DNA of 64,000 nt. It comes from Bacillota bacterium (GTDB lineage: Bacteria > Bacillota > DULZ01). Location: NCBI GenBank assembly GCA_041655595.1, contig JBBAFB010000001.1, positions 2,168 to 66,167 of the forward strand, in the 5' to 3' direction. The notes beneath the pieces are model-generated. The model saw only the letters and a list, made by a program, of their open reading frames with translations, had not been told where the DNA came from and did no database searches. The translations under genes and the position numbers were made by a program. Positions 4,567-42,952 of the stretch are shown piece after piece (position 1 is the stretch's first letter; every line of letters begins with the position of its first letter).

Positions 4567-5562
4567 TCAAAAATTTGTAAAAGCTCTTTTTAATATCCCT
4601 CTTTGCCGGGCAATTAAACCCGACAGTGCCGTTCCCACTGCATTATCTGTACTGTAATAAGGATCTGCAAAAAACAGCTCCCCTCCGACGGCAGCGTGTT
4701 CCAGTCTTAAAGATAGTTTCTTTCTTAGATGCCGATTTGCCGCCACCCCGCCTACCAGCAAAATTTTATTTAGACCTGTGTTCTTTATGCCCTCAAGTGC
4801 CACCTTTTCAATGGTTTTAGTTATACAATTTTCTATTGCTCTGGCAACCGTTTCAAAAGGATGGCCTTCCTCTATCAATTTTAAAGCGTGAGTCTCCCCG
4901 CCCGAAAAACTGAAGTTATAACCGCTGACATAAGAGGGGATGTATGTATCCTGACTCTTGGATGCTGTTGCCAGTTTCTCCAAATGCACTCCTGCCGGAA
5001 AAGGTAAACCCATAGCTACACCGATGCGGTCTACAAATTGGCCCGCGTGTAAATCCAATGTTCCCCCTAAATAGTCAATTTTAAAGATTTCTTCCCCTTT
5101 TGCACCGGAAACTCGTAGCAGCTCCGATGTTCCGCCGGATAAATGCACTGCTAAAAAATCAGCATCCCAATCCAACTCACTTGACCAAAGACCAGCTAAC
5201 AGGTGGCCTTCCTGGTGTGATGTTGCCCAAAAAGGGACCCCAAAAAACTCCGCTAAGACCCGCCCTTGTGATTCCCCGACTGTAAAAACCGGCATGTAGG
5301 AATCTTTCATTGGCCTAGGTCTTGTGCTGGCAGCTATCGCCAAAATATTCTCACTTTTAATAGCCTCTTTTATTCCTTGGAAAATGGTTTTCATGTTTTG
5401 CACATGCTGAAACACCGCCTGTGATTGCTGTAAACCTCTTTTCCCCTGAGGAACCTTCAGTACCAGACGGTGTTCCTTGATCAGCTTTAGTTCCTGATTC
5501 ATGATAGCTATGCTGGTAGTGTAACAACTTGTGTCGATGCCAACTATAATACCCACAATCAA
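4567..5562 (-). CDS. TsaD/Kae1/Qri7-family (ASKHA) protein, divergent paralog
   Basis: GIDTSCYTTSIAI N-terminus matches the TsaD GIETSCDDT motif. The second conserved block is SHQEGHLL rather than the HHxEGH metal-binding dyad of canonical TsaD (first His is Ser). Tail motifs GGVAAN and YSTDNA are present. Confidence 0.55.
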   Translation of the reverse strand: MIVGIIVGIDTSCYTTSIAIMNQELKLIKEHRLVLKVPQGKRGLQQSQAVFQHVQNMKTIFQGIKEAIKSENILAIAASTRPRPMKDSYMPVFTVGESQGRVLAEFFGVPFWATSHQEGHLLAGLWSSELDWDADFLAVHLSGGTSELLRVSGAKGEEIFKIDYLGGTLDLHAGQFVDRIGVAMGLPFPAGVHLEKLATASKSQDTYIPSYVSGYNFSFSGGETHALKLIEEGHPFETVARAIENCITKTIEKVALEGIKNTGLNKILLVGGVAANRHLRKKLSLRLEHAAVGGELFFADPYYSTDNAVGTALSGLIARQRGILKRAFTNF

Positions 5563-34678: not shown

Positions 34679-35392
34679 TTAACTTCGCAAATAAACAGCT
34701 AATTGATCTAGGGCCCTTTTTAGCAACCGCGAAACTTGCCTTTGATTTGTGCCGATTTCTGAAGCAATTTTATTTTGAGTTAACTCCTGAAAAAAATTCA
34801 TATAAATGATTTTTTGTTGTAAACCCGACAATTTGCTGATTGCCTCCTTGAGAAGCAGTTGATCTTCAATAGGCAACTTAAAACTTTCGTGATATAAGTT
34901 TTTTATTTGTGAAACATCAACCTCTTCCAAGGTAATAGTACCTGCTAACATGGCCTCTACGATACCCTCTTCTTTAATATTCATAGCCTCGGCAACCTCA
35001 CTTAAATTAGGTTCCCTCTGCAAAGTTTGCCGCAAACTATCAGTGACAGCTAAAATTTGAGTTTTCAACTTATTCAGACCCGGAGGTAAATCAAAGCTGA
35101 CTTCCAACTGCAGTTCCCTTTGTATTTCTCCAATAATATAATAAGTTGCATAGGTTGCAAACAGGACACCCCTAGCTGGATCATAATTTTTTAAGGCTTT
35201 TAAAACCCCCTCATATCCTGCTTGGGTCAAATCCTGCCAGGAAGCAGTTTTAACATACCTGTTTGCATAGTGGTAGACTAAGCCGGTGGCCGCATCCACA
35301 ATCTCATTAACCAAACCCTCGTGGGGATTATAATGGTACTGCAAAACTAAGGCTTCTAATCTTTGGTTTTTTCTATCAGCCATTGCAGCCAC
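34679..35392 (-). CDS. Sigma-70 family (group 3, SigB/F/G/FliA-like) RNA polymerase sigma factor embedded in the pilus operon
   Basis: 237 aa. Region 2: YANRY...DLTQAGYEGVLKALKNYDPARGVLFATYATYYIIGEIQREL. Region 4 HTH: QNKIASEIGTNQRQVSRLLKRALDQL. Lies between pilC1 and pilM1 on the same strand with short gaps. Confidence 0.7.
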   Translation of the reverse strand: MAAMADRKNQRLEALVLQYHYNPHEGLVNEIVDAATGLVYHYANRYVKTASWQDLTQAGYEGVLKALKNYDPARGVLFATYATYYIIGEIQRELQLEVSFDLPPGLNKLKTQILAVTDSLRQTLQREPNLSEVAEAMNIKEEGIVEAMLAGTITLEEVDVSQIKNLYHESFKLPIEDQLLLKEAISKLSGLQQKIIYMNFFQELTQNKIASEIGTNQRQVSRLLKRALDQLAVYLRS

Positions 35393-35406: not shown

Positions 35407-36618
35407 TTAGATTCCTGATTGCACTACGGCATTAAAAATAGGCAGATATAAAGAAATAACCATTAATCCAACGACTAGCCCTATGCCAACCATTAACATC
35501 GGTTCCAACATCGCCGATAAGCCCTTGGTAATGATGGTAACTTCTTCTTCAAAGAACTCAGAAACTTTATTCAACATTTCCGAAAGAGTACCAGATTGCT
35601 CTCCAACTGCAACCATTTGCACAACCATCGGCGGAAACAAATTGCTTTCTTTTAAAGGCTCGGCCAGGCCTGCCCCCTCTTCAATCTTTTCTTTGGCCGC
35701 TGCCAAGGCATTAACTATAAGCTGGTTGCCTGTGGCCTTCCCTGAAACATCCAAAGCCTGTAGGATTGGAATTCCGCCATTTAATAAGGTTGCAAGGGTC
35801 CTGGTAAATCTGGCGGTACTGGCTTTCTGTAATAAAGATCCAAAAACCGGCAACCTGAATTTTAATTTGTCCAGCCAAAGAGTGCCGGCAACGGATGCAG
35901 ATAAATATTTTATACCGCCAAACAAACCGCCTGCAATTAAAATCCAAAAATACCAGCTTCCCCTTAAGGAATTTGAAGCAGCCAAAACCATTTTAGTAGG
36001 TAAAGGCAGCTCCGTTCCCGGCGGGAACATCTTTACAAAAACAGGTACTATGAATACAAGCATGGCGATGATCATTAAAAAGGCAAATCCGCCGATCATA
36101 CTGGGATAGAAGGTAGCGGAACGAATATTATCCCGTAAAGTTTTATCCTTTTGTAATTGCTCGGAAAGATGTACTAAACTAGTATCCAATGTCCCCCCCA
36201 ACTCTCCTGCCTTGACCATTCCGGTAAATAAGCTGGGAAAAATCTTGGATTGTTCTTCCAGGGCCTCCCCAAAACTCATTCCCGCCTCCACATTAATTGC
36301 CACTGCCTCAACCACTTTTTTAAAACGAAGGTTGACCGTTTGGTCCTCCAAAGCAAAGAGACATTGGGTTAGGGGAATGCCTGCCTGTAGCATAGAAGCT
36401 AATTGGCGACTAAAAAGGCTGATTTCCCCTAAAGTGACCTTCTTTTCTTTTTTAAAAAAACTCAAACTTGCAATGGTTGTCCTTTTTTCCCTTATATCAA
36501 TAATGAAATAGCCCATATCCTTTAAGTGGGTTATTGCTCGGTTAAGATCCCCCGCCTTTAATTGGCCCACAGAAATTCGGCCTTGGTTGTCCAGTATTTC
36601 ATAAGAGAAAGTTCTCAT
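35407..36618 (-). CDS. pilC: Type IV pilus inner-membrane platform protein PilC (module 1)
   Basis: 403 aa. Two T2SSF repeats and TM helices. Confidence 0.8.
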   Translation of the reverse strand: MRTFSYEILDNQGRISVGQLKAGDLNRAITHLKDMGYFIIDIREKRTTIASLSFFKKEKKVTLGEISLFSRQLASMLQAGIPLTQCLFALEDQTVNLRFKKVVEAVAINVEAGMSFGEALEEQSKIFPSLFTGMVKAGELGGTLDTSLVHLSEQLQKDKTLRDNIRSATFYPSMIGGFAFLMIIAMLVFIVPVFVKMFPPGTELPLPTKMVLAASNSLRGSWYFWILIAGGLFGGIKYLSASVAGTLWLDKLKFRLPVFGSLLQKASTARFTRTLATLLNGGIPILQALDVSGKATGNQLIVNALAAAKEKIEEGAGLAEPLKESNLFPPMVVQMVAVGEQSGTLSEMLNKVSEFFEEEVTIITKGLSAMLEPMLMVGIGLVVGLMVISLYLPIFNAVVQSGI

Positions 36619-37826
36619 TTTGCCTCGTCCTTCTTTTTATCAAAACTTGCCACCAGCTCTTGCAACATTTTAATCCGATCCGGTGTTTCCTCTGCCCACA
36701 AAATATAGTGGGGATTGGCCGAGTCTCCAGACAAGTTTTCTGAGATATGCATACTTGTTGAAATAACAGGAGACATTTCCGTTAAAATAGTTCTTAAGGC
36801 TTTTAACCTTTCCATAGCATAACTACCGGAGGCTGAAGTTATGGTAGCTTTAATTTTTTCTCTGGCAACATCAATGGCCTTCAAGCTGATGTAAATCTGC
36901 GGTTCCAACTCTGGAGGGCAAATTACAATAATTTCCCTACTTAATTCCGGAAAATTAAAGGCGAGCAACTCTAACCCGTCGTAACCGAAGGAATCCATCC
37001 TGGTAACCGCATCTTTTGCCACTAAATGCTCAAATCTGTAAATAAAAACGGTCTTATTTCTCCCCTCCAACCGATCAAGCTCCATTGCAACTCGCTGAAG
37101 CTGACTCCAGCTTTCAATGATGGCTTCATCAAAAACCAACAACCTGTTGCCAATGGTTACGTATTTGTTTAAAGGAATACCTGTTTCTTTAATCAGCTCC
37201 ACCAAGCGACTTGGCTCAACTACATAGGTTTTTAATTCTTTAAAAGCGAAGTTAATTATTTCACCATCATCTAAATAAAAATTTTCTACGATATCCACCG
37301 CTGCAATTAATTCCTTAATTTTAATTAAATCATCCGGAGTGCCTTGAACCCAAATAGAACGCGGATTTGATTCCAGCACAAAACTTTTTACAGGGATTCC
37401 CAAGGTGTTAATCAAGGTTTGCAATTGATTTCCTCGAATATATATAAAATCAAATCTTGTTAAGGTAGCCGTTGTAAAACCGACATCCCGCAATTTTTGT
37501 TCATTACCCACCACCAATATTTTTCCATCTTTAATGTAGCTTAGGCCCTCATTTTTAAGAAGTAGATCCAGGGCCTCCATGGGACTGACATTCTCCACCG
37601 AAAAAGTTACCTTGACCGGTTTTTCAATTAAAACAATATTGGTATTAGTTTTAATAGCCAATGCGGATAAAACGTCTCTTAAATCCGCTTCTCTGACATC
37701 CAAGGAAATGATCTCTTCCCGGGCACTGACACCGACTGTGCCCGTACTAAAAGCCGGAAGCAGCAAGCCGATAAAAACCAAACAGATTATGTAAACCTTT
37801 TTACTGTTTTTCATTCTGCAACCCAC
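36615..37826 (-). CDS. Secretin N-domain-only protein (STN/N0 plus at least two Secretin_N repeats; no secretin pore domain)
   Basis: 403 aa. Signal peptide. ISLDVREADLRDVLSALAIKTNTNIVL...VKVTFSVENVSPMEALDLLLKNEGLSY matches the secretin N0/STN consensus. Later SIWVQGTPDDLIKIKELIAAVD and NRLLVFDEAIIESWSQLQRVAMELD resemble Secretin_N (N1/N2) repeats. The C-terminal ~150 aa show no secretin core. Confidence 0.55.
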   Translation of the reverse strand: MGCRMKNSKKVYIICLVFIGLLLPAFSTGTVGVSAREEIISLDVREADLRDVLSALAIKTNTNIVLIEKPVKVTFSVENVSPMEALDLLLKNEGLSYIKDGKILVVGNEQKLRDVGFTTATLTRFDFIYIRGNQLQTLINTLGIPVKSFVLESNPRSIWVQGTPDDLIKIKELIAAVDIVENFYLDDGEIINFAFKELKTYVVEPSRLVELIKETGIPLNKYVTIGNRLLVFDEAIIESWSQLQRVAMELDRLEGRNKTVFIYRFEHLVAKDAVTRMDSFGYDGLELLAFNFPELSREIIVICPPELEPQIYISLKAIDVAREKIKATITSASGSYAMERLKALRTILTEMSPVISTSMHISENLSGDSANPHYILWAEETPDRIKMLQELVASFDKKKDEAK

Positions 37827-37834
37827 CTGTTTTG

Positions 37835-38326
37835 CTATTTTCTTGGAGCAAACGCTATCGTTATTTCCCTAGTTTCATTATTTAGAACAATATAATCCCT
37901 GTTGATCTCTGTTAACTCCCATGTGTCAGCTATCTTATCGCCTATCGCCAAAATATAACTGACTTGTTGCGCTTTTATAATTGCCAAATCCTGTTCACCC
38001 TTAATCACTCCTAAAAGCTCAATAGGTGCACTAAAAGGATCAACAACTGCCTCTAAATAATCTTGGGAGGGAGTCAATTGCCCGCCTTCCTGCCTTTCTA
38101 GCTGAGGGAGAATTTGGGCAAGTTCATCTTGCAGTTGCTGCTCCGTTAAACCTGGAATACCGGGTATGACAGGTGTTTGGGTTGAGCCTTGCAAAAAAAA
38201 CCTAATACCGAAAGCAACTAAAATAAGGGTTAATAAAACTCCTATTAAAATATACAACCTAAGTTTTCCCTTTCCCGCCTCTTCCTTTGAAAAACCAGGC
38301 TGGGACCAATTAAATGGTAGTTTCAT
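37835..38326 (-). CDS. PilP/GspC-HR-like single-TM protein
   Basis: 163 aa from the ATG at 38326 (GGAG RBS). The ORF-track start at 38383 is a TTG inside a terminator. TM LYILIGVLLTLILVAFGI, Pro/Gln-rich linker, C-terminal beta-domain DPFSAPIELLGVIKGEQ...YILAIGDKIADTWELTEINRDYIVL with PilP-like pattern. Confidence 0.5.
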   Translation of the reverse strand: MKLPFNWSQPGFSKEEAGKGKLRLYILIGVLLTLILVAFGIRFFLQGSTQTPVIPGIPGLTEQQLQDELAQILPQLERQEGGQLTPSQDYLEAVVDPFSAPIELLGVIKGEQDLAIIKAQQVSYILAIGDKIADTWELTEINRDYIVLNNETREITIAFAPRK

Positions 38327-38370
38327 TTTCGGCTCCGCCAATCTTTTACCCCCTTTAATTGATAATTTGC

Positions 38371-38406
38371 AATAAAAAACCAAGCTGATTTAGCCTGGTA
38401 GCTTGG
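38371..38406 (-). terminator. Rho-independent terminator downstream of pilT
   Basis: Minus-strand hairpin CCAAGCT-(13 nt)-AGCTTGG followed by TTTTTTATT. Confidence 0.5.
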
Positions 38407-38613
38407 CGATCCTAGCCCCTACGGCGGGACTTTAGACCCATAGCTTTGCAGTCATCATCTTTCAATGACTTTGCCTTTAACTGCTAAAATTCTTATATCT
38501 TGCATGATATCTAAATCATAGCAATACCTATGTGCTGTCCTATTTTTCTCTTAACTTTAAATTTCGACAGAAAGAGTCCATTCCCTGCAAATATTATTAA
38601 TATTTATTAATTA

Positions 38614-39708
38614 TTATTCCCAATAGCTTGAAGAAGCAAAGGAAGCTCTTTGCATTAATCTATCGAGTTCCACCTTATCCACGGAATGTTCAAGCGCCGT
38701 TTCTCCGGAAATTTTTCCCGAACTGTAAAGTTCGGCTAAAGCTTGATCCATAGTATGCATGCCGCTGCTTTTCGACGTTTGCATGGTATTATAAAGTTGA
38801 TGTTCTTTTCCCTCTCTGATTAAATTTCTAACAGCAGGGGAATCCAGTAAAATCTCCGTCGCCAAAACCCTGCCCGCCCCGTCCTGAGTGGGTAACAATT
38901 GTTGGGAAACCACTGCCTTTAAAGTGTTGGATAACTGCTGCCGCACTTGTTCTCTGCTCTGATCTTGAAAAACATCAATAATGCGGCTGATAGTTAAGGG
39001 GGCTGTTTGTGTATGTAAGGTCGAAAATACCAAGTGACCGGTTTCTGCCGCCGTTAATGCAATAGAGATACTATCCAAATCCCTCATTTCTCCGATGAGA
39101 ATCACATCGGGGTCGTGTCGAAGAACATGGCGCAAAGCATGTGCAAAGGAATGGGTGTCTATACCTACCTCTCTTTGTTTGACGATGGATTTTTGATGTT
39201 TATGCAAAAATTCAATAGGATCTTCTATGGTAACGATGTTTACATGCCTTTCTCTGTTAATTAAATCAACCATTGCAGCTAAGGTAGTAGATTTACCGCT
39301 GCCCGTAGGTCCGGTGATCAAGACTAAACCCCTTGGCAAATAGCACAATTCTTTAATTTGGGCAGGAAGTCCTAATTGATCTATATCAGGAATTTTAAAA
39401 GGCACAATCCTAAAAACAGCCGCTAAACTACCCCTTTGTCTCATGATATTGCCCCTAAACCGTGCAACCCCGGGTAAGGCATAGGATACATCTAATTCTA
39501 ATTTTTCATTAAACTGCTGAAAATCATTTAACAGTGGGGATAAAAATTCTTCCATGCCTTGAGGAGTAAAGGGTGGCGAATCTAAGGCAATCAGCCTACC
39601 TTGCACCCGGATCATCGGAGGAATACCTACGGCAACATGTAGGTCTGAGGCCTGCAGATGGGTAGCCTGTTGTAGCAAAAAATCCAAACTGGGCACAAAA
39701 TCAGACAT
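38614..39708 (-). CDS. pilT: Twitching-motility retraction ATPase PilT
   Basis: 364 aa. Walker A GPTGSGKSTTL, AIRNLIRE-like C-terminal PilT motif (AVRNLIREGK), no N-terminal extension. Confidence 0.85.
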   Translation of the reverse strand: MSDFVPSLDFLLQQATHLQASDLHVAVGIPPMIRVQGRLIALDSPPFTPQGMEEFLSPLLNDFQQFNEKLELDVSYALPGVARFRGNIMRQRGSLAAVFRIVPFKIPDIDQLGLPAQIKELCYLPRGLVLITGPTGSGKSTTLAAMVDLINRERHVNIVTIEDPIEFLHKHQKSIVKQREVGIDTHSFAHALRHVLRHDPDVILIGEMRDLDSISIALTAAETGHLVFSTLHTQTAPLTISRIIDVFQDQSREQVRQQLSNTLKAVVSQQLLPTQDGAGRVLATEILLDSPAVRNLIREGKEHQLYNTMQTSKSSGMHTMDQALAELYSSGKISGETALEHSVDKVELDRLMQRASFASSSYWE

Positions 39709-39889
39709 CTTTCCACTCCCTAGTTAAAACAATTTTTTCTCTATTACAAATATAGCATAAAATAAGGAAATGGGGAAGATATTGTTGAAAAAGCTGAAGG
39801 CTGAAAGCGAAAGGTTAAAAACCAGTTAAGAGGAGGATAGAGGTTTTTGTAGCCTTTATCTTGGTTTGGGGTTGGTGGGTTTTTAGCAG

Positions 39890-39945
39890 GTAGAAAGTAG
39901 AAGGTAGAAAGTAGAAAGTAGAAGGTAGAAGGTAGAAAGTAGAAA
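39890..39945. repeat. Tandem heptanucleotide repeat (GTAGAAR)x8 in the pilA-pilT intergenic region
   Basis: Eight perfect head-to-tail copies: GTAGAAA GTAGAAG GTAGAAA GTAGAAA GTAGAAG GTAGAAG GTAGAAA GTAGAAA. The last copy merges with the pilA terminator U-tract. A G/T-rich tract GGTTTGGGGTTGGTGGGTTTTT precedes it at 39862-39883. Confidence 0.9.
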
Positions 39946-39972
39946 AAACCGGTTGGAAGGGACCAACCGGTT
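39940..39972 (-). terminator. Strong rho-independent terminator of the major pilin gene
   Basis: Perfect 10-bp stem AACCGGTTGG / CCAACCGGTT with 6-nt loop, followed on the minus strand by TTTTTTCT. Confidence 0.75.
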
Positions 39973-40061
39973 ATAGCACCTTTTTAAAATTACCAAAGAC
40001 AATGAGCCATCTCATTATGTTATTTCGTCAAACAGGGAACCGTCCCCCTGTTTTCCCTCGC

Positions 40062-40424
40062 CTAGGCTTCCGGTTCGCCTAATGTTACTTTGTAATTATC
40101 ACCATCCTTGGTAATAACATACTCTCTTTCATCATCAGATCCATATGGGTTTTTAGGTTCCTCCATTAAATATTTTGGTACTAAACCATAAAAATCGGTA
40201 CCTTTTCCAGGAAGGGTCCCTTCTGTAGCTTCATATAGAGAGATTGCACCTTTTATGGTTCTGATATTGGCATCGTTTGCGACATTTGCTGCTTTTTCGG
40301 TTGCGTTATTGTAGACCGGGATAGCTATTGCTACCAGGACACCTATAATACCTACTACTACCATTAGTTCAACCAAAGTAAAACCTTTTTTGTTTTTCAG
40401 TTGTCTTTGGATGTAAGAAATCAT
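40062..40424 (-). CDS. pilA: Major type IV pilin (PilA-like, class III signal peptide)
   Basis: 120 aa. MISYIQRQLKNKKG/FTLVELMVVVGIIGVLVAIAIP has a consensus prepilin peptidase site (G-F-T-L-x-E). Strong RBS AAGGGAGGA. Followed by its own strong terminator. Confidence 0.85.
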   Translation of the reverse strand: MISYIQRQLKNKKGFTLVELMVVVGIIGVLVAIAIPVYNNATEKAANVANDANIRTIKGAISLYEATEGTLPGKGTDFYGLVPKYLMEEPKNPYGSDDEREYVITKDGDNYKVTLGEPEA

Positions 40425-40508: not shown

Positions 40509-41252
40509 TTATTTTAAAAAATTTAAATAAAAACCAATAATTTGGTGTCCCCATAAAGAAGAAAGGGTTATGCCCAAGGCTAAAAAGGGGCCAAAGGGGA
40601 TGGGAGTTTTTTTAGTTTTTCGTCCTGTCGCTAACAAAACGGCCCCGACTAGGCCACCTGTTACAAAGGCTATAAATAGTGCCAATAGGGTGCCCAACTG
40701 ACCCAGAGAAAAACCGGCCGCAAACATGAGTTTTATATCCCCACCGCCCATACCCCCTTTACTTAAGATGGCTATTGCCAATAATAAACCACCGCCGATA
40801 ACAGCCCCCAAAACCGCCTGCCACCAAGTTTGCTCGGGCAAGAAAATTTGCCATAGAATGGACCAGCCCAAAAGGCTGATCACCAGGGAATCCGGAATAA
40901 GCTGCAGCTCTAAATCAATCATCGTAATCACAATTAAAAGGCTTAAGATAATTAAATATTTAATTAACAAAAACCGAAAGTCTACAGTTAAAAAGGCAAT
41001 TAAAAAAACAAAGCCGGTCAAGAGTTCCACCAAGGGGTAACGAAGTCGGATAAGTTCATTACAATAGCGGCATTTGCCCCTTAACAATAAAAAACTCAAA
41101 ACAGGAATTAAATCCAAAGGTTCCAGGCCGGTATGGCAATGGGGACAATGGGAAGTGCCGGAAACAATATTTTTATTTTTAGGAATACGAAAAATACAAA
41201 CATTTAAAAAAGAACCGATCACCAATCCGAGGATAAAAATTAGTATTGCCAA
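40509..41252 (-). CDS. pilD: Prepilin peptidase (A24 family) PilD
   Basis: 247 aa. CPHCHTGLEPLDLIPVLSFLLLRGKCRYC zinc-binding tetracysteine N-domain and a polytopic peptidase domain with catalytic Asp residues. Confidence 0.85.
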   Translation of the reverse strand: MAILIFILGLVIGSFLNVCIFRIPKNKNIVSGTSHCPHCHTGLEPLDLIPVLSFLLLRGKCRYCNELIRLRYPLVELLTGFVFLIAFLTVDFRFLLIKYLIILSLLIVITMIDLELQLIPDSLVISLLGWSILWQIFLPEQTWWQAVLGAVIGGGLLLAIAILSKGGMGGGDIKLMFAAGFSLGQLGTLLALFIAFVTGGLVGAVLLATGRKTKKTPIPFGPFLALGITLSSLWGHQIIGFYLNFLK

Positions 41253-41272: not shown

Positions 41273-42952
41273 TCAAAGATCATTGCTGTAAGCCACTCTC
41301 ATCACTTCCTTGATCGTGGTTAAGCCCCTAAAGGCTTTTTCGATACCGTCTTCCTGTAAAGTAAGCATACCACTTGCCAGCGCAATAGTCTTTAACTCAC
41401 TTCTAGACATTCTTTGCAAAATGCCTTGCCTGATATCGTTATTTACAGGCAATATTTCCGAGATAGCTATCCTCCCCTTATAACCGGTGTAATCACAATG
41501 ACTGCAGCCTTTACCTCGCACCGCCTGTCCTAGGGGATAACCCATTTCTGCAATAAAAATTGCTTCCTCGGAAAATTTCTCCGGGCCGTAGCTTTCCTGA
41601 CAATGGGGACAAATCCTTCTAACTAGGCGCTGGGCCACTACCGCCTTTGTAGCGGAGGCGACTAAATAAGGTTCACTTCCCATGTCCAACAAACGGGTAA
41701 TGGCACTTGAAGCATCGGCAGTATGTAAGGTACTGAAGACCAAATGGCCTGTGATTGCCGCCCGGATAGCAACCCCCGCTGTCTCCTGATCCCTGATTTC
41801 CCCCACCATAATCACATCGGGGTCCTGACGTAGTATTGAACGCAATCCGGTAGCAAAACTTAGTTCCGGCTTAGAACTCACATTTATTTGATTAACACCC
41901 GTTAAAACATACTCCACAGGGTCCTCTATAGTCATAATATTTAAGTCGGCAGAGTTCAGATAATGCAAGCTGGAATAAAGGGTTGCAGACTTACCGCTAC
42001 CGGTAGGCCCCACTACTAAAATCATTCCTTCGGTATTTTTTAAAAGCCGTTTATATTGCTGCAAATTTTTAGGGGAAAAACCTAGTTTTTCTAAAGCTAT
42101 TAAGGATTCCACTTGTTCCAAAATCCTTGCCACTAACTTCTCCCCTAGTACAGTGGGCGAGATTGAAAGGCGCAGATTAACAAAACGATCCTTAATTTTT
42201 AAACTCATTCTGCCATCCCGGGGCAATCTTTTTTCCGTAATGTCCATTCCGGCCATGATTTTAATCCTGGAAATTAAAGGGGGCAAATATTCCAAGCCCA
42301 GTTCCATTACCCCCCTTAAAATACCATCCACCCTATACCTAATTCTTACCCTATTAGTTAAAGGTTCAATATGTATGTCACTGGCGCCCAAGCTGACACC
42401 TTGACGGATAATAGTATTCACCAAACGAATTAACTGATTTTCATCTACCGAGCTTTCAGCTATTTCCCAGGGTTTTTCCGCCGGTATTCTTTCTCCGGCG
42501 GTTTTATAAGTAAACTCAGTTTCCAACTCTCGAAAGCCGTAATACTTTTCAATATAGGCCGCAATTTCTTGCTCGCCGGCTATGGCAGTTAAGACATTTA
42601 AACCTGTTGCTTCGCTAATTTCATCAACAGCTAAAATATTTAATGGATCGGCCAAAGCAATTTCTAGCGTCTGATTTCCATAATGAAGGGGAAAGGCTTG
42701 ATATTTTACTGCCAAAGCGGCAGGCAAATGTTGGAGGGCCTGATTATCACCCTTTAACTTGTCAAAATCCGCCAAAGGTATTTTCAATTGCTCCGATAGG
42801 GCCTTAGTTAAATCCTTTTCCGCCAACAAACCCTTTTTGAACAAAATTTTACCCAACCTCTCCCCCGATGCTTGTTGATCATTTAAGGCCTCTGTCAAAT
42901 CTTCTTCCTTCAACAAATTAGTGGCAATCAGGATTTCACCCAAAAGTTTCAT
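41273..42952 (-). CDS. pilB: Type IV pilus assembly ATPase PilB/GspE (module 1)
   Basis: 559 aa. T2SE_Nter domain, Walker A GPTGSGKSATL, CPHC...CSHC zinc motif. Confidence 0.85.
   Translation of the reverse strand: MKLLGEILIATNLLKEEDLTEALNDQQASGERLGKILFKKGLLAEKDLTKALSEQLKIPLADFDKLKGDNQALQHLPAALAVKYQAFPLHYGNQTLEIALADPLNILAVDEISEATGLNVLTAIAGEQEIAAYIEKYYGFRELETEFTYKTAGERIPAEKPWEIAESSVDENQLIRLVNTIIRQGVSLGASDIHIEPLTNRVRIRYRVDGILRGVMELGLEYLPPLISRIKIMAGMDITEKRLPRDGRMSLKIKDRFVNLRLSISPTVLGEKLVARILEQVESLIALEKLGFSPKNLQQYKRLLKNTEGMILVVGPTGSGKSATLYSSLHYLNSADLNIMTIEDPVEYVLTGVNQINVSSKPELSFATGLRSILRQDPDVIMVGEIRDQETAGVAIRAAITGHLVFSTLHTADASSAITRLLDMGSEPYLVASATKAVVAQRLVRRICPHCQESYGPEKFSEEAIFIAEMGYPLGQAVRGKGCSHCDYTGYKGRIAISEILPVNNDIRQGILQRMSRSELKTIALASGMLTLQEDGIEKAFRGLTTIKEVMRVAYSNDL

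What the first reader, a model, noticed from the sequence alone, without database searches (positions are those of the whole stretch)
39862..39972. Eight-copy heptad array (GTAGAAR)x8 fused to the pilA terminator, plus a G/T-rich tract, between pilA and pilT
A perfect 10-bp-stem terminator ends the highly expressed major pilin transcript. On the minus strand its U-tract runs straight into eight head-to-tail heptamers, read YTTCTAC x8 on the transcribed strand. Next comes a 22-nt G/T-rich block, CA-rich on the minus strand. Perfect tandem heptamers are classic slipped-strand mispairing substrates, and copy-number changes of 7 nt would shift helical phasing or spacing of anything bound here. The repeat is not coding: no ORF spans it. 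One possibility is a phase-variable spacer controlling read-through or a pilT promoter. Another is a reiterated binding site (7-bp periodicity) for a regulator. A third is an RNA element, such as a C/A-rich rut-like site, influencing termination efficiency between pilin and retraction ATPase.
Basis: seen in the sequence. Interest (0 to 1): 0.6.

Follow-up and report, generated by a model that had tools for sequence, protein, structure and literature searches.

The report
Unstable 7-base repeat after pilin terminator
Eight head-to-tail copies of a 7-base unit sit right after the terminator of a pilin gene in an uncultured Bacillota genome; the repeat is real and changeable, but it is missing from every relative, so it is most likely an ordinary young microsatellite rather than a pilus switch.

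Summary
Window 39890-39945 holds eight perfect GTAGAAR units, with a decayed ninth at 39883-39889. One base away is a 10-bp-stem intrinsic terminator (39947-39972, minus strand) that ends the pilB-pilD-pilA unit. A G/T tract (39862-39884) lies on the other side. pilT starts 181 nt further on.

The array is specific to this lineage. The sister lineage (PilT 91.5 % identical) and three clades at 74-78 % keep the layout pilin, terminator, pyrimidine-rich tail, conserved pilT promoter. None has the heptads.

The array changes faster than its surroundings. An independent assembly (SRR8449813) matches the window exactly over about 6 kb. It breaks inside the array and carries a different order of unit variants.

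The array ends about 112 nt upstream of the predicted -35 of the conserved pilT promoter, so it cannot change core promoter spacing. As read-through RNA it is unpaired and, with the CA tract, nearly G-free (85 nt, 1 G, 32 C). That composition is rut-like, but relatives do not share it.

GTAGAAR arrays are common in other phyla and densely dispersed in some genomes. This genome shows only one in 73 kb.

Verdict: a young slippage microsatellite grown from the terminator's U-rich tail. A regulatory role is unproven. Low to moderate interest.

The parts
40062..40424 (-). pilA: 120-aa prepilin (leader MISYIQRQLKNKKG, then FTLVELMVV). It is the last gene of the pilB-pilD-pilA unit.
   Evidence: ORF list; Pfam N_methyl; TIGR02532 prepilin domain, 32 bits against a cut-off of 16.
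40030..40053 (-). Small hairpin directly after the pilA stop codon (ACAGGG...CCCUGU).
   Evidence: Present in both the MFE and centroid structures. The sister locus L134 has a hairpin at the same place with different stem letters (CTAGGGG...CTCCTAG).
39947..39972 (-). Intrinsic terminator hairpin of the pilin transcript: AACCGGTTGG-TCCCTT-CCAACCGGTT.
   Evidence: Terminator scan: 10 pairs, 6 G-C. It is the only structure kept in the centroid fold of the + strand RNA (-16.8 kcal/mol), and it is also formed in the minus-strand (transcribed) fold. A terminator lies at the equivalent place in all relatives.
39890..39945 (-). Eight tandem heptads, YTTCTAC on the transcribed strand and GTAGAAR on the + strand. 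The first unit supplies the terminator's U-run.
   Evidence: TRF; pattern search. Identical in assemblies L001 and L003; a different allele in L004/L002. Absent in relatives.
39883..39889 (-). Decayed ninth unit (TTAGCAG on the + strand) at the promoter-side edge of the array.
   Evidence: Matches the unit with 2 mismatches. The period-14 TRF row starts at 39884.
39862..39884 (-). CA-rich tract on the transcribed strand (G/T-only on the + strand). With the array it forms an 85-nt stretch holding 1 G and 32 C.
   Evidence: Sequence; composition. It is the only 78-nt window on the minus strand of the 64-kb window with at most 3 G and at least 20 C (39854-39962). It is unpaired in the centroid fold.
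39749..39781 (-). Predicted pilT promoter: -35-like TTCCCC (39772-39777), a 17-nt spacer, then an extended -10 TGCTATATT (39749-39757).
   Evidence: It is the only block of the spacer that aligns with the sister lineage. The same CTTCC-N19-TATATT block with a TG extension occurs in L125-L133. Function is inferred, not measured. The consensus scan did not list it because the -35 is weak.
38614..39708 (-). pilT: 364-aa retraction ATPase. Its Shine-Dalgarno AGGGAG lies at 39716-39721.
   Evidence: TIGR01420, 471 bits against a cut-off of 319; NCBI names it PilT.

Best explanation
The array is a young heptanucleotide microsatellite specific to this lineage. It most likely grew by replication slippage out of the pyrimidine-rich tail that follows the pilA intrinsic terminator. 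It keeps changing by gain, loss or reshuffling of units. It lies outside every conserved functional element of the spacer. Its first unit serves as the terminator's U-run. The rest is an untranslated, unstructured C/U-rich spacer that is transcribed only when RNA polymerase reads through the terminator. pilT is expressed mainly from its own conserved promoter downstream. The array has no dedicated, conserved regulatory role. Any effect on pilA-to-pilT read-through would be a side effect. Shown here: the array's existence, its fusion to the terminator, its absence in relatives, allele variation between assemblies, its distance from the promoter, its lack of RNA structure, and its solitary occurrence in 73 kb. 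Inferred: the slippage origin, the promoter assignment and the near-neutrality.
For: (1) All relatives with the same gene order lack it. These are the sister lineage L134/L135 (PilT 91.5 %, PilA 68.5 %, about 76 % nucleotide identity) and three clades at 74-78 % PilT identity, L125-L133. (2) What is conserved is the terminator position, a pyrimidine-rich tail after it (for example TTTGTTCTTCTTTTCTTACC in L125) and the promoter block. (3) The units are perfect except for one transition position, and a decayed unit sits at one edge. This is the usual signature of a recently expanded array. (4) The Logan contigs from SRR8449813 are 100 % identical to the window outside the array. They end and begin inside it with unit orders T,T,T,T,T... 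and ...T,C,T,T, against T,T,C,C,T,T,C,T in the window. The window allele has no exact internal repeat longer than 21 nt, so it would have assembled through at k = 31 (my recollection of Logan's k-mer size). (5) The array ends about 112 nt upstream of the predicted -35. (6) The array is unpaired in the fold, z = -0.86, and has no Rfam match. (7) The same heptad forms arrays in at least 120 stretches from many phyla, so such arrays arise readily.
Against: Absence in relatives excludes a conserved role but not a lineage-specific one. The near-total lack of G over 85 nt is unique on that strand in the window. Part of that comes from the non-repeat CA tract, which slippage does not explain. Both known alleles begin with two T-type units, which keeps the U-run; this could reflect selection, but n = 2. 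Variation rests on a single alternative assembly. Copy number in that sample is unresolved, and whether the samples are independent is unknown.
Confidence: 0.62

Rival explanations
1. Rho-loading (rut-like) fail-safe. On transcripts that escape the pilA terminator, the array plus the CA tract gives Rho an 85-nt or longer untranslated, unstructured, C-rich and G-poor landing site. Rho then stops read-through before or inside pilT. This insulates the low-abundance retraction ATPase from the pilin promoter, and copy number would set the length of the site.
For: The stretch holds 32 C and 1 G in 85 nt. It is the only such stretch on the coding-sense strand of the 64-kb window. It is unpaired in the centroid structure. 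No credible ORF covers it. It lies directly upstream of an independent pilT promoter.
Against: Relatives have only a mild C over G bias after their terminators (C 17-24, G 9-14 in 85 nt), so the property is not conserved. Composition is the only evidence. A rho gene was not looked for in this genome. Only about 112 nt separate the array from the pilT promoter, so Rho release would probably fall inside the pilT unit.
Confidence: 0.15
2. Contingency locus or expression rheostat. Slippage changes copy number, and that tunes pilT (or pilA read-through) expression. The model is the 7-bp repeats upstream of hmw1A and hmw2A in Haemophilus influenzae.
For: It is a tandem heptad in a non-coding region of a surface-appendage locus. 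An alternative allele exists in otherwise identical DNA, and an assembly breaks inside the array. There is a documented precedent in which increasing numbers of 7-bp repeats generally correlate with less transcript (PMC2424069).
Against: The array lies outside the promoter core, the leader and the ORF of pilT, about 112 nt upstream of the -35. Only the terminator and pilA lie upstream to be re-phased. The NCBI and ENA assemblies carry the identical 8-unit allele. A copy-number difference has not actually been shown, only a difference in unit order. The organism is environmental (one relative's contig is from a biogas fermenter metagenome), with no evident host-driven selection for switching.
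Confidence: 0.12
3. Reiterated binding site for a protein. One version is a DNA-binding regulator that recognises direct repeats. Another is an RNA-binding protein of the HutP type, because the + strand reads UAG-N4 eight times.
For: The periodicity is strict at 7 nt. The + strand reads (UAG N4)x8, which matches from memory the HutP recognition pattern UAG-N4-UAG-N4-UAG.
Against: No promoter-like site and no gene lie on the + strand. Beyond the array, the + strand is antisense to pilA, pilD and pilB for more than 3 kb. On the + strand the hairpin is not followed by a T-run. The array is absent in relatives that share the whole pilus gene set. The alternative allele alters the variable position freely. 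The 21-bp super-period seen in the window allele is not kept in the other allele.
Confidence: 0.05
4. Assembly artefact: the array, or its length, was produced by the assembler.
For: Short-read assemblers can mis-size tandem repeats, and the Logan assembly breaks here.
Against: The 56-nt array is shorter than typical reads and than the k = 141 implied by the ENA contig name. The NCBI contig (165 kb) and the ENA contig (60.6 kb) carry the identical array. The Logan contigs independently carry at least 4 units on each side.
Confidence: 0.02

Closest known systems
[quoted passage not shown]
   Same: A heptanucleotide tandem array in the non-coding region of a surface-adhesion locus. Repeat number varies among isolates (9-28), and more repeats generally go with less transcript (PMC2424069). 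The unit is also T/C-rich; ATCTTTC is from memory.
   Different: Those repeats lie within the promoter and leader region of the regulated gene. Here the array is fused to the preceding gene's terminator and ends about 112 nt upstream of the predicted pilT -35. No link between copy number and expression is known here, and only two alleles have been seen.
Short tandemly repeated repetitive (STRR) heptanucleotide sequences of filamentous cyanobacteria
   Same: Tandem heptamers in intergenic regions (PMC2670836). The GTAGAAR heptad itself occurs as arrays in Okeania, Microcoleus, Rivularia and Leptolyngbya genomes, and as dense dispersed families in a Heliobacteriaceae MAG and a Blastocatellales MAG.
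   Different: STRRs are dispersed in many copies per genome. Here there is one array in 73 kb and no other heptad array. Elsewhere most GTAGAAR arrays abut gene 3' ends with GTAGAAR on the sense strand, and only 3 of 129 follow a hairpin. Here the sense strand reads YTTCTAC, directly after a terminator hairpin.
Rho utilisation (rut) sites downstream of leaky intrinsic terminators
   Same: Untranslated, unstructured, C-rich and G-poor RNA of about 80 nt.
   Different: Only the composition was tested. Rho dependence, the presence of rho and release sites are all unknown. The property is not shared by relatives.
HutP binding sites (UAG-N4 triplet repeats) of the Bacillus hut operon
   Same: UAG spaced by four bases, repeated, and lying just 5' of a hairpin on the + strand.
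   Different: It is on the wrong strand for any gene in the region. There is no + strand promoter or downstream ORF, and the hairpin is not a terminator in that direction.

Membership tests
Intrinsic (factor-independent) terminator | G+C-rich stem-loop immediately followed by a U-run, downstream of a gene on the same strand | tested here: met
   10-bp stem, 6 G-C pairs, loop of 6, tail UUUUCUACUU, lying 89 nt after the pilA stop. The hairpin dominates the folds. Relatives have a terminator at the equivalent place.
Simple-sequence-repeat contingency (phase-variable) locus | Uninterrupted tandem repeat tract | tested here: met
   Eight perfect GTAGAAR units.
Simple-sequence-repeat contingency (phase-variable) locus | Tract lies inside an ORF or inside the promoter core or leader, so that unit gain or loss changes expression | tested here: not met
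   No credible ORF covers it. The array ends about 112 nt upstream of the predicted -35 of the conserved pilT promoter and downstream of the pilA terminator.
Simple-sequence-repeat contingency (phase-variable) locus | Tract length differs among isolates or within a population | tested here: inconclusive
   The NCBI and ENA assemblies carry an identical allele. The Logan assembly of SRR8449813 has a different unit order and breaks inside the array, and its copy number is unresolved. Two metagenome scans for the flanks found nothing further.
Simple-sequence-repeat contingency (phase-variable) locus | Expression of the linked gene changes with repeat number | not testable with these tools
   This needs reporter or transcript measurements.
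STRR-like dispersed heptanucleotide repeat family | Tandem heptamers in intergenic DNA | tested here: met
STRR-like dispersed heptanucleotide repeat family | Many arrays of the same heptad dispersed through the same genome | tested here: not met
   One array of at least 2 units in 73 kb (window plus L136), and no other period-7 array of at least 3 copies. For contrast, 17 arrays in 8 fetched loci of the Heliobacteriaceae MAG. The rest of this genome could not be scanned.
Rho utilisation (rut) site | About 80 nt of C-rich, G-poor, unstructured, untranslated RNA | tested here: met
   85 nt holding 32 C and 1 G; unpaired in the centroid fold; no credible ORF.
Rho utilisation (rut) site | Rho-dependent transcript release downstream, and a rho gene in the genome | not tested
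   No whole-genome access and no transcript data.
HutP-type RNA binding site | At least three UAG triplets spaced by 4 nt | tested here: met
   Eight such triplets on the + strand.
HutP-type RNA binding site | Lies in the sense-strand leader of a regulated operon, upstream of a terminator in that direction | tested here: not met
   The + strand has no promoter-like site and no gene, and the hairpin lacks a T-run in that direction.

The most novel reading that the evidence does not exclude
The array is a slippage-driven rheostat placed at the boundary between the pilin unit and the retraction-ATPase unit. Its copy number, and the T or C type of its first unit (which makes the terminator's U-run UUUU or UCUU), would set how much transcription leaks past the pilA terminator and how well Rho can load on the leaked RNA. 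The pilin-to-PilT ratio would then vary heritably from cell to cell in an environmental Bacillota. That would be a terminator-embedded contingency element, a placement not described for simple sequence repeats as far as I know.
Probability: 0.1. Interest if true: 0.6.

Novelty: new member of a known kind. Interest (0 to 1): 0.25.

Why it matters
If the array is neutral, as I think most likely, it matters little. It is a clean example of a microsatellite born in the U-rich tail of a terminator, and a warning that striking tandem repeats next to pilus genes need not be switches. If it does modulate read-through, it would show that slippage can tune the coupling of two adjacent transcription units from within a terminator tail. 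That would be a new position for a contingency repeat. The wider by-product may be more interesting. The same heptad, GTAGAAR, carries a TAG stop in all three frames. It forms dense, dispersed arrays at gene ends in unrelated genomes (Heliobacteriaceae, Blastocatellales, cyanobacteria, Bacteroidota). This extends the unexplained cyanobacterial STRR phenomenon to other phyla.

Tried and rejected
(1) Known RNA family. Rfam at gathering threshold on the whole window found only a c-di-GMP-I riboswitch elsewhere. At E up to 10 on 39600-40200 it gave only chance-level hits on the terminator hairpin.

(2) RNA structure. I tested whether the CU-rich units pair with the purine-rich pilT ribosome-binding region; CUUUCUAC can pair with GUGGAAAG on paper. 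The fold of the whole read-through spacer leaves the array unpaired, with z = -0.86, so I rejected this.

(3) A + strand element (HutP-like UAG-N4, or an antisense RNA). I rejected it because there is no promoter-like site, no + strand gene, and the + strand fold shows only the hairpin.

(4) A small protein. The 39-aa TTG ORF through the array runs through the terminator stem and is absent in the sister lineage, so I rejected it.

(5) Strain survey. Exact-match scans of JGI metagenome contigs for both flanks returned nothing. The protein-identity look-ups collapse similar contigs, so only two distinct array alleles could be read.

(6) A general 'terminator tail plus heptads' module. Only 3 of 129 GTAGAAR arrays in other genomes directly follow a hairpin, against 22 of 2996 random positions, so I rejected it.

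(7) Literature. No paper in the library contains the array sequence.

(8) Extending the genome sample. One of two look-ups at the window ends failed. The other added 9 kb with no further array.

It therefore says nothing about other contigs of this MAG.

Full report
1. WHAT IS IN THE SEQUENCE

The region lies in a type IV pilus cluster whose genes are all on the minus strand:
- pilB, 41273-42952, with an MshE-type c-di-GMP-binding N-terminus
- prepilin peptidase, 40509-41252
- a 120-aa prepilin, pilA, 40062-40424
- pilT, 38614-39708 (TIGR01420, 471 bits against a cut-off of 319)
- a c-di-GMP-I riboswitch, 38394-38485
- further assembly genes: a T2SSC-like gene, a gene like the N-terminal part of PilQ, pilC, a SigB/F/G-family sigma factor and pilM

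Read on the transcribed strand, the 353-nt pilA-pilT spacer contains, in order:
- a small hairpin just after the stop codon (40030-40053) and a second one (39999-40018)
- a terminator hairpin (39972-39947; 10 pairs, 6 G-C, loop of 6)
- one U
- eight perfect YTTCTAC units (39945-39890; TRF period 7, 8.0 copies)
- a decayed ninth unit (39889-39883)
- a CA-rich tract (to 39862)
- about 80 nt of ordinary sequence
- a block with an extended -10 (TGCTATATT, 39757-39749) and a weak -35 (TTCCCC, 39777-39772)
- a Shine-Dalgarno sequence and the pilT ATG

One exception is minor: a mechanical 39-aa TTG ORF does run through the terminator and the array. The array is far beyond chance. Outside it, the heptad occurs at the random rate, 16 units against about 15.6 expected.

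2. WHOSE GENOME

The window is part of contig CAZJLM010000002.1 (165 kb) of MAG GCA_964547055.1, named only 'Bacillota bacterium'. The nearest named organism by PilT is Desulfitibacter (67 % identity).

3. COMPARATIVE EVIDENCE

The closest relative found is a sister lineage: L134, from the same ENA assembly, and L135, MAG GCA_964500905.1. It has the same pilB-pilD-pilA-pilT order. Identities are PilT 91.5 %, PilB 81 %, PilA 68.5 %, and about 76 % at the nucleotide level.

Its spacer has a terminator at the same place (GCCGGTCAAGTAGCACCGGC followed by TTTTTCC). A pyrimidine-rich tail follows, and then a promoter block nearly identical to the window's: TATCTTCCCAATTTTCCTATTTCATGCTATATTT. It has no heptad array.

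Three further clades with 74-78 % PilT identity (L125-L133) show the same plan: pilin, terminator, T/C-rich tail (for example TTTGTTCTTCTTTTCTTACC), about 110 nt, then CTTCC-N19-TATATT with a TG extension, then pilT. They also have no array.

The conserved elements are therefore the terminator and the pilT promoter. The array is an addition in one lineage. The c-di-GMP riboswitch after pilT is conserved in all of them. This confirms that pilT sits as its own unit between two regulated boundaries.

4. INSTABILITY

The NCBI contig and the ENA contig (60.6 kb) carry the identical array. The Logan assembly of run SRR8449813 yields two contigs. One ends, and the other begins, inside the array.

Outside their last or first 31 bases, both contigs are 100 % identical to the window, over 2.0 and 3.9 kb. 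Inside the array their unit order is T,T,T,T,T... and ...T,C,T,T. The window has T,T,C,C,T,T,C,T.

The window allele has no exact internal repeat longer than 21 nt, so it would not break a k = 31 graph (k = 31 is my recollection of how Logan assemblies are built). The break implies a longer homogeneous run, a mixture of alleles, or both (inference).

This is one observation, and I could not establish whether the samples are independent. Still, it shows that the array is the fastest-changing part of the locus. Scans of JGI metagenome contigs for either flank found nothing more.

5. FUNCTIONAL TESTS THAT COULD BE RUN

- Position. The array ends about 112 nt upstream of the predicted -35. Changes of 7 bp cannot alter promoter core spacing, and nothing but the terminator and pilA lies beyond the array to be re-phased.
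- Structure. In the fold of the read-through RNA the array is single-stranded and the region is no more stable than shuffles (z = -0.86). There is no Rfam family match.
- Composition. The array plus the CA tract is 85 nt with 32 C and 1 G. It is the only such stretch on that strand in 64 kb. This is the composition expected of a Rho loading site. The same 85 nt after the terminators of relatives hold 17-24 C and 9-14 G, so the extreme bias is not a conserved property.
- Opposite strand. The + strand reads UAG-N4 eight times. This recalls the HutP site, but there is no + strand promoter-like site or gene, and the hairpin does not terminate in that direction.

6. THE SAME HEPTAD ELSEWHERE

About 2 would be expected by chance for a random 21-mer of that degeneracy (my arithmetic). 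The stretches come from Bacteroidota, Cyanobacteriota, Acidobacteriota, Chloroflexota, Verrucomicrobiota and others.

They hold 136 arrays of 3 to 19 units, and 111 of these lie outside ORFs of at least 120 aa. Many abut the 3' end of a gene with GTAGAAR on the sense strand, where TAG falls in all three frames.

Two MAGs carry the heptad as a dense dispersed family: a Heliobacteriaceae MAG (17 arrays in 8 loci) and a Blastocatellales MAG (16 in 8). Period 7 dominates all tandem repeats in the fetched loci, including dozens of other heptads. This resembles the cyanobacterial STRR phenomenon (PMC2670836).

Only 3 of 129 arrays directly follow a hairpin as ours does. In this genome, 73 kb (window plus L136) contains only this one array and no other heptad array. 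The heptad is therefore a generic, recurrent repeat unit and not pilus-specific. This copy is solitary.

7. INTERPRETATION

The best-supported reading (confidence about 0.6) is a young microsatellite. It was seeded by slippage in the pyrimidine-rich terminator tail that all relatives possess. It now supplies the terminator's U-run with its first unit and otherwise acts as spacer.

The main rivals are:
- a rut-like fail-safe for read-through (0.15)
- a copy-number rheostat like the H. influenzae hmw 7-bp repeats (PMC2424069) (0.12)
- a reiterated protein-binding site (0.05)
- an assembly artefact (0.02)

None of the functional rivals is excluded. All lack positive evidence beyond composition or analogy, and all must be lineage-specific.

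8. NOVELTY AND SCORE

Intergenic heptanucleotide microsatellites are a known kind of feature. This is a new member in an unusual position, fused to a terminator's U-run. I score interest at 0.25.

The most novel reading not excluded is a terminator-embedded contingency element that tunes the pilin-to-PilT ratio. I give it a probability of about 0.1 and an interest of 0.6 if true.

Noticed in passing
window 38394-38485 (-); L125 4742-4830, L128 4743-4831, L131 4720-4808, L134 6208-6289: A c-di-GMP-I riboswitch (RF01051, 65.8 bits in the window) lies between pilT and the downstream pilus assembly genes. It is conserved at the same place in all relatives checked. The assembly genes, rather than the pilin or pilT, therefore appear to be the c-di-GMP-gated unit.
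   Followed up: partly
window 41273-42952 (-): PilB carries an MshE-type c-di-GMP-binding N-terminal domain (NF053729, 53 bits against a cut-off of 38; Pfam MshEN). The locus may thus sense c-di-GMP twice, through a riboswitch and through the ATPase. In relatives a PAS-GGDEF protein, a CheY-like receiver and a CheC/CheX-like protein sit directly upstream of the pilins (L125, L127-L133).
   Followed up: partly
window 34679-35392 (-); L125 7843-8119, L128 7850-8119, L131 7868-8119: A 237-aa sigma factor of the SigB/SigF/SigG family (TIGR02980, 140 bits, below its cut-off of 234) is embedded in the pilus cluster right after pilC. It is conserved there in relatives. Its target promoters are unknown.
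   Followed up: no
window 39749-39781 (-); equivalent blocks in L125-L134: The only conserved block of the pilA-pilT spacer is CTTCC-N19-TATATT with a TG extension. It is a likely pilT promoter with a weak -35. The invariant ACTTCC/TCTTCC could also be a regulator site or the -35 for the cluster's own sigma factor.
   Followed up: partly
window 40030-40053 (-); L134 about 4680-4700: A hairpin directly after the pilA stop codon is kept in the sister lineage with different stem letters (ACAGGG/CCCUGU against CTAGGGG/CTCCTAG). It may be an mRNA-stabilising or processing element, separate from the terminator.
   Followed up: no
L024, L027, L038, L046, L055, L077, L080, L086 (Heliobacteriaceae MAG CAZBPH01); L049, L059, L063, L066, L088, L091, L115, L116 (Blastocatellales MAG JBFWQI01): GTAGAAA arrays form dense dispersed families in two unrelated MAGs (17 and 16 arrays in eight 8-kb loci each). 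They often start at or within a few bases of a gene's stop codon, with TAG in all three frames. Some occur as inverted pairs that could form very long hairpins (L055 4323-4452, L061, L096). Period 7 dominates all tandem repeats in these loci, including many other heptads. This is an STRR-like phenomenon outside cyanobacteria.
   Followed up: partly
window 36615-37826 (-) and 37835-38383 (-): A 403-aa protein matches only the N-terminal part of the PilQ secretin (TIGR02515 positions 3-78, E 3e-8; faint Pfam STN and Secretin_N). A T2SSC-like protein precedes it. The pair is conserved in relatives. A secretin-N-like protein without a secretin domain is odd in a Bacillota.
   Followed up: no
window 39883-40002 (-): A mechanical 39-aa TTG ORF (MSLVILKRCYNRLVPSNRFFLLSTFYLLLSTFYLLLSTC) runs through the terminator stem and the whole array. 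The YTTCTAC reading has no stop in any frame. It is not conserved and is probably meaningless.
   Followed up: yes
window 39863-39879 (+): The G/T tract holds four G-runs (GG, GGGG, GG, GGG) separated by 1-3 T. On paper this could form a two-tetrad G-quadruplex on the template strand of the pil transcripts. I did not test it.
   Followed up: no
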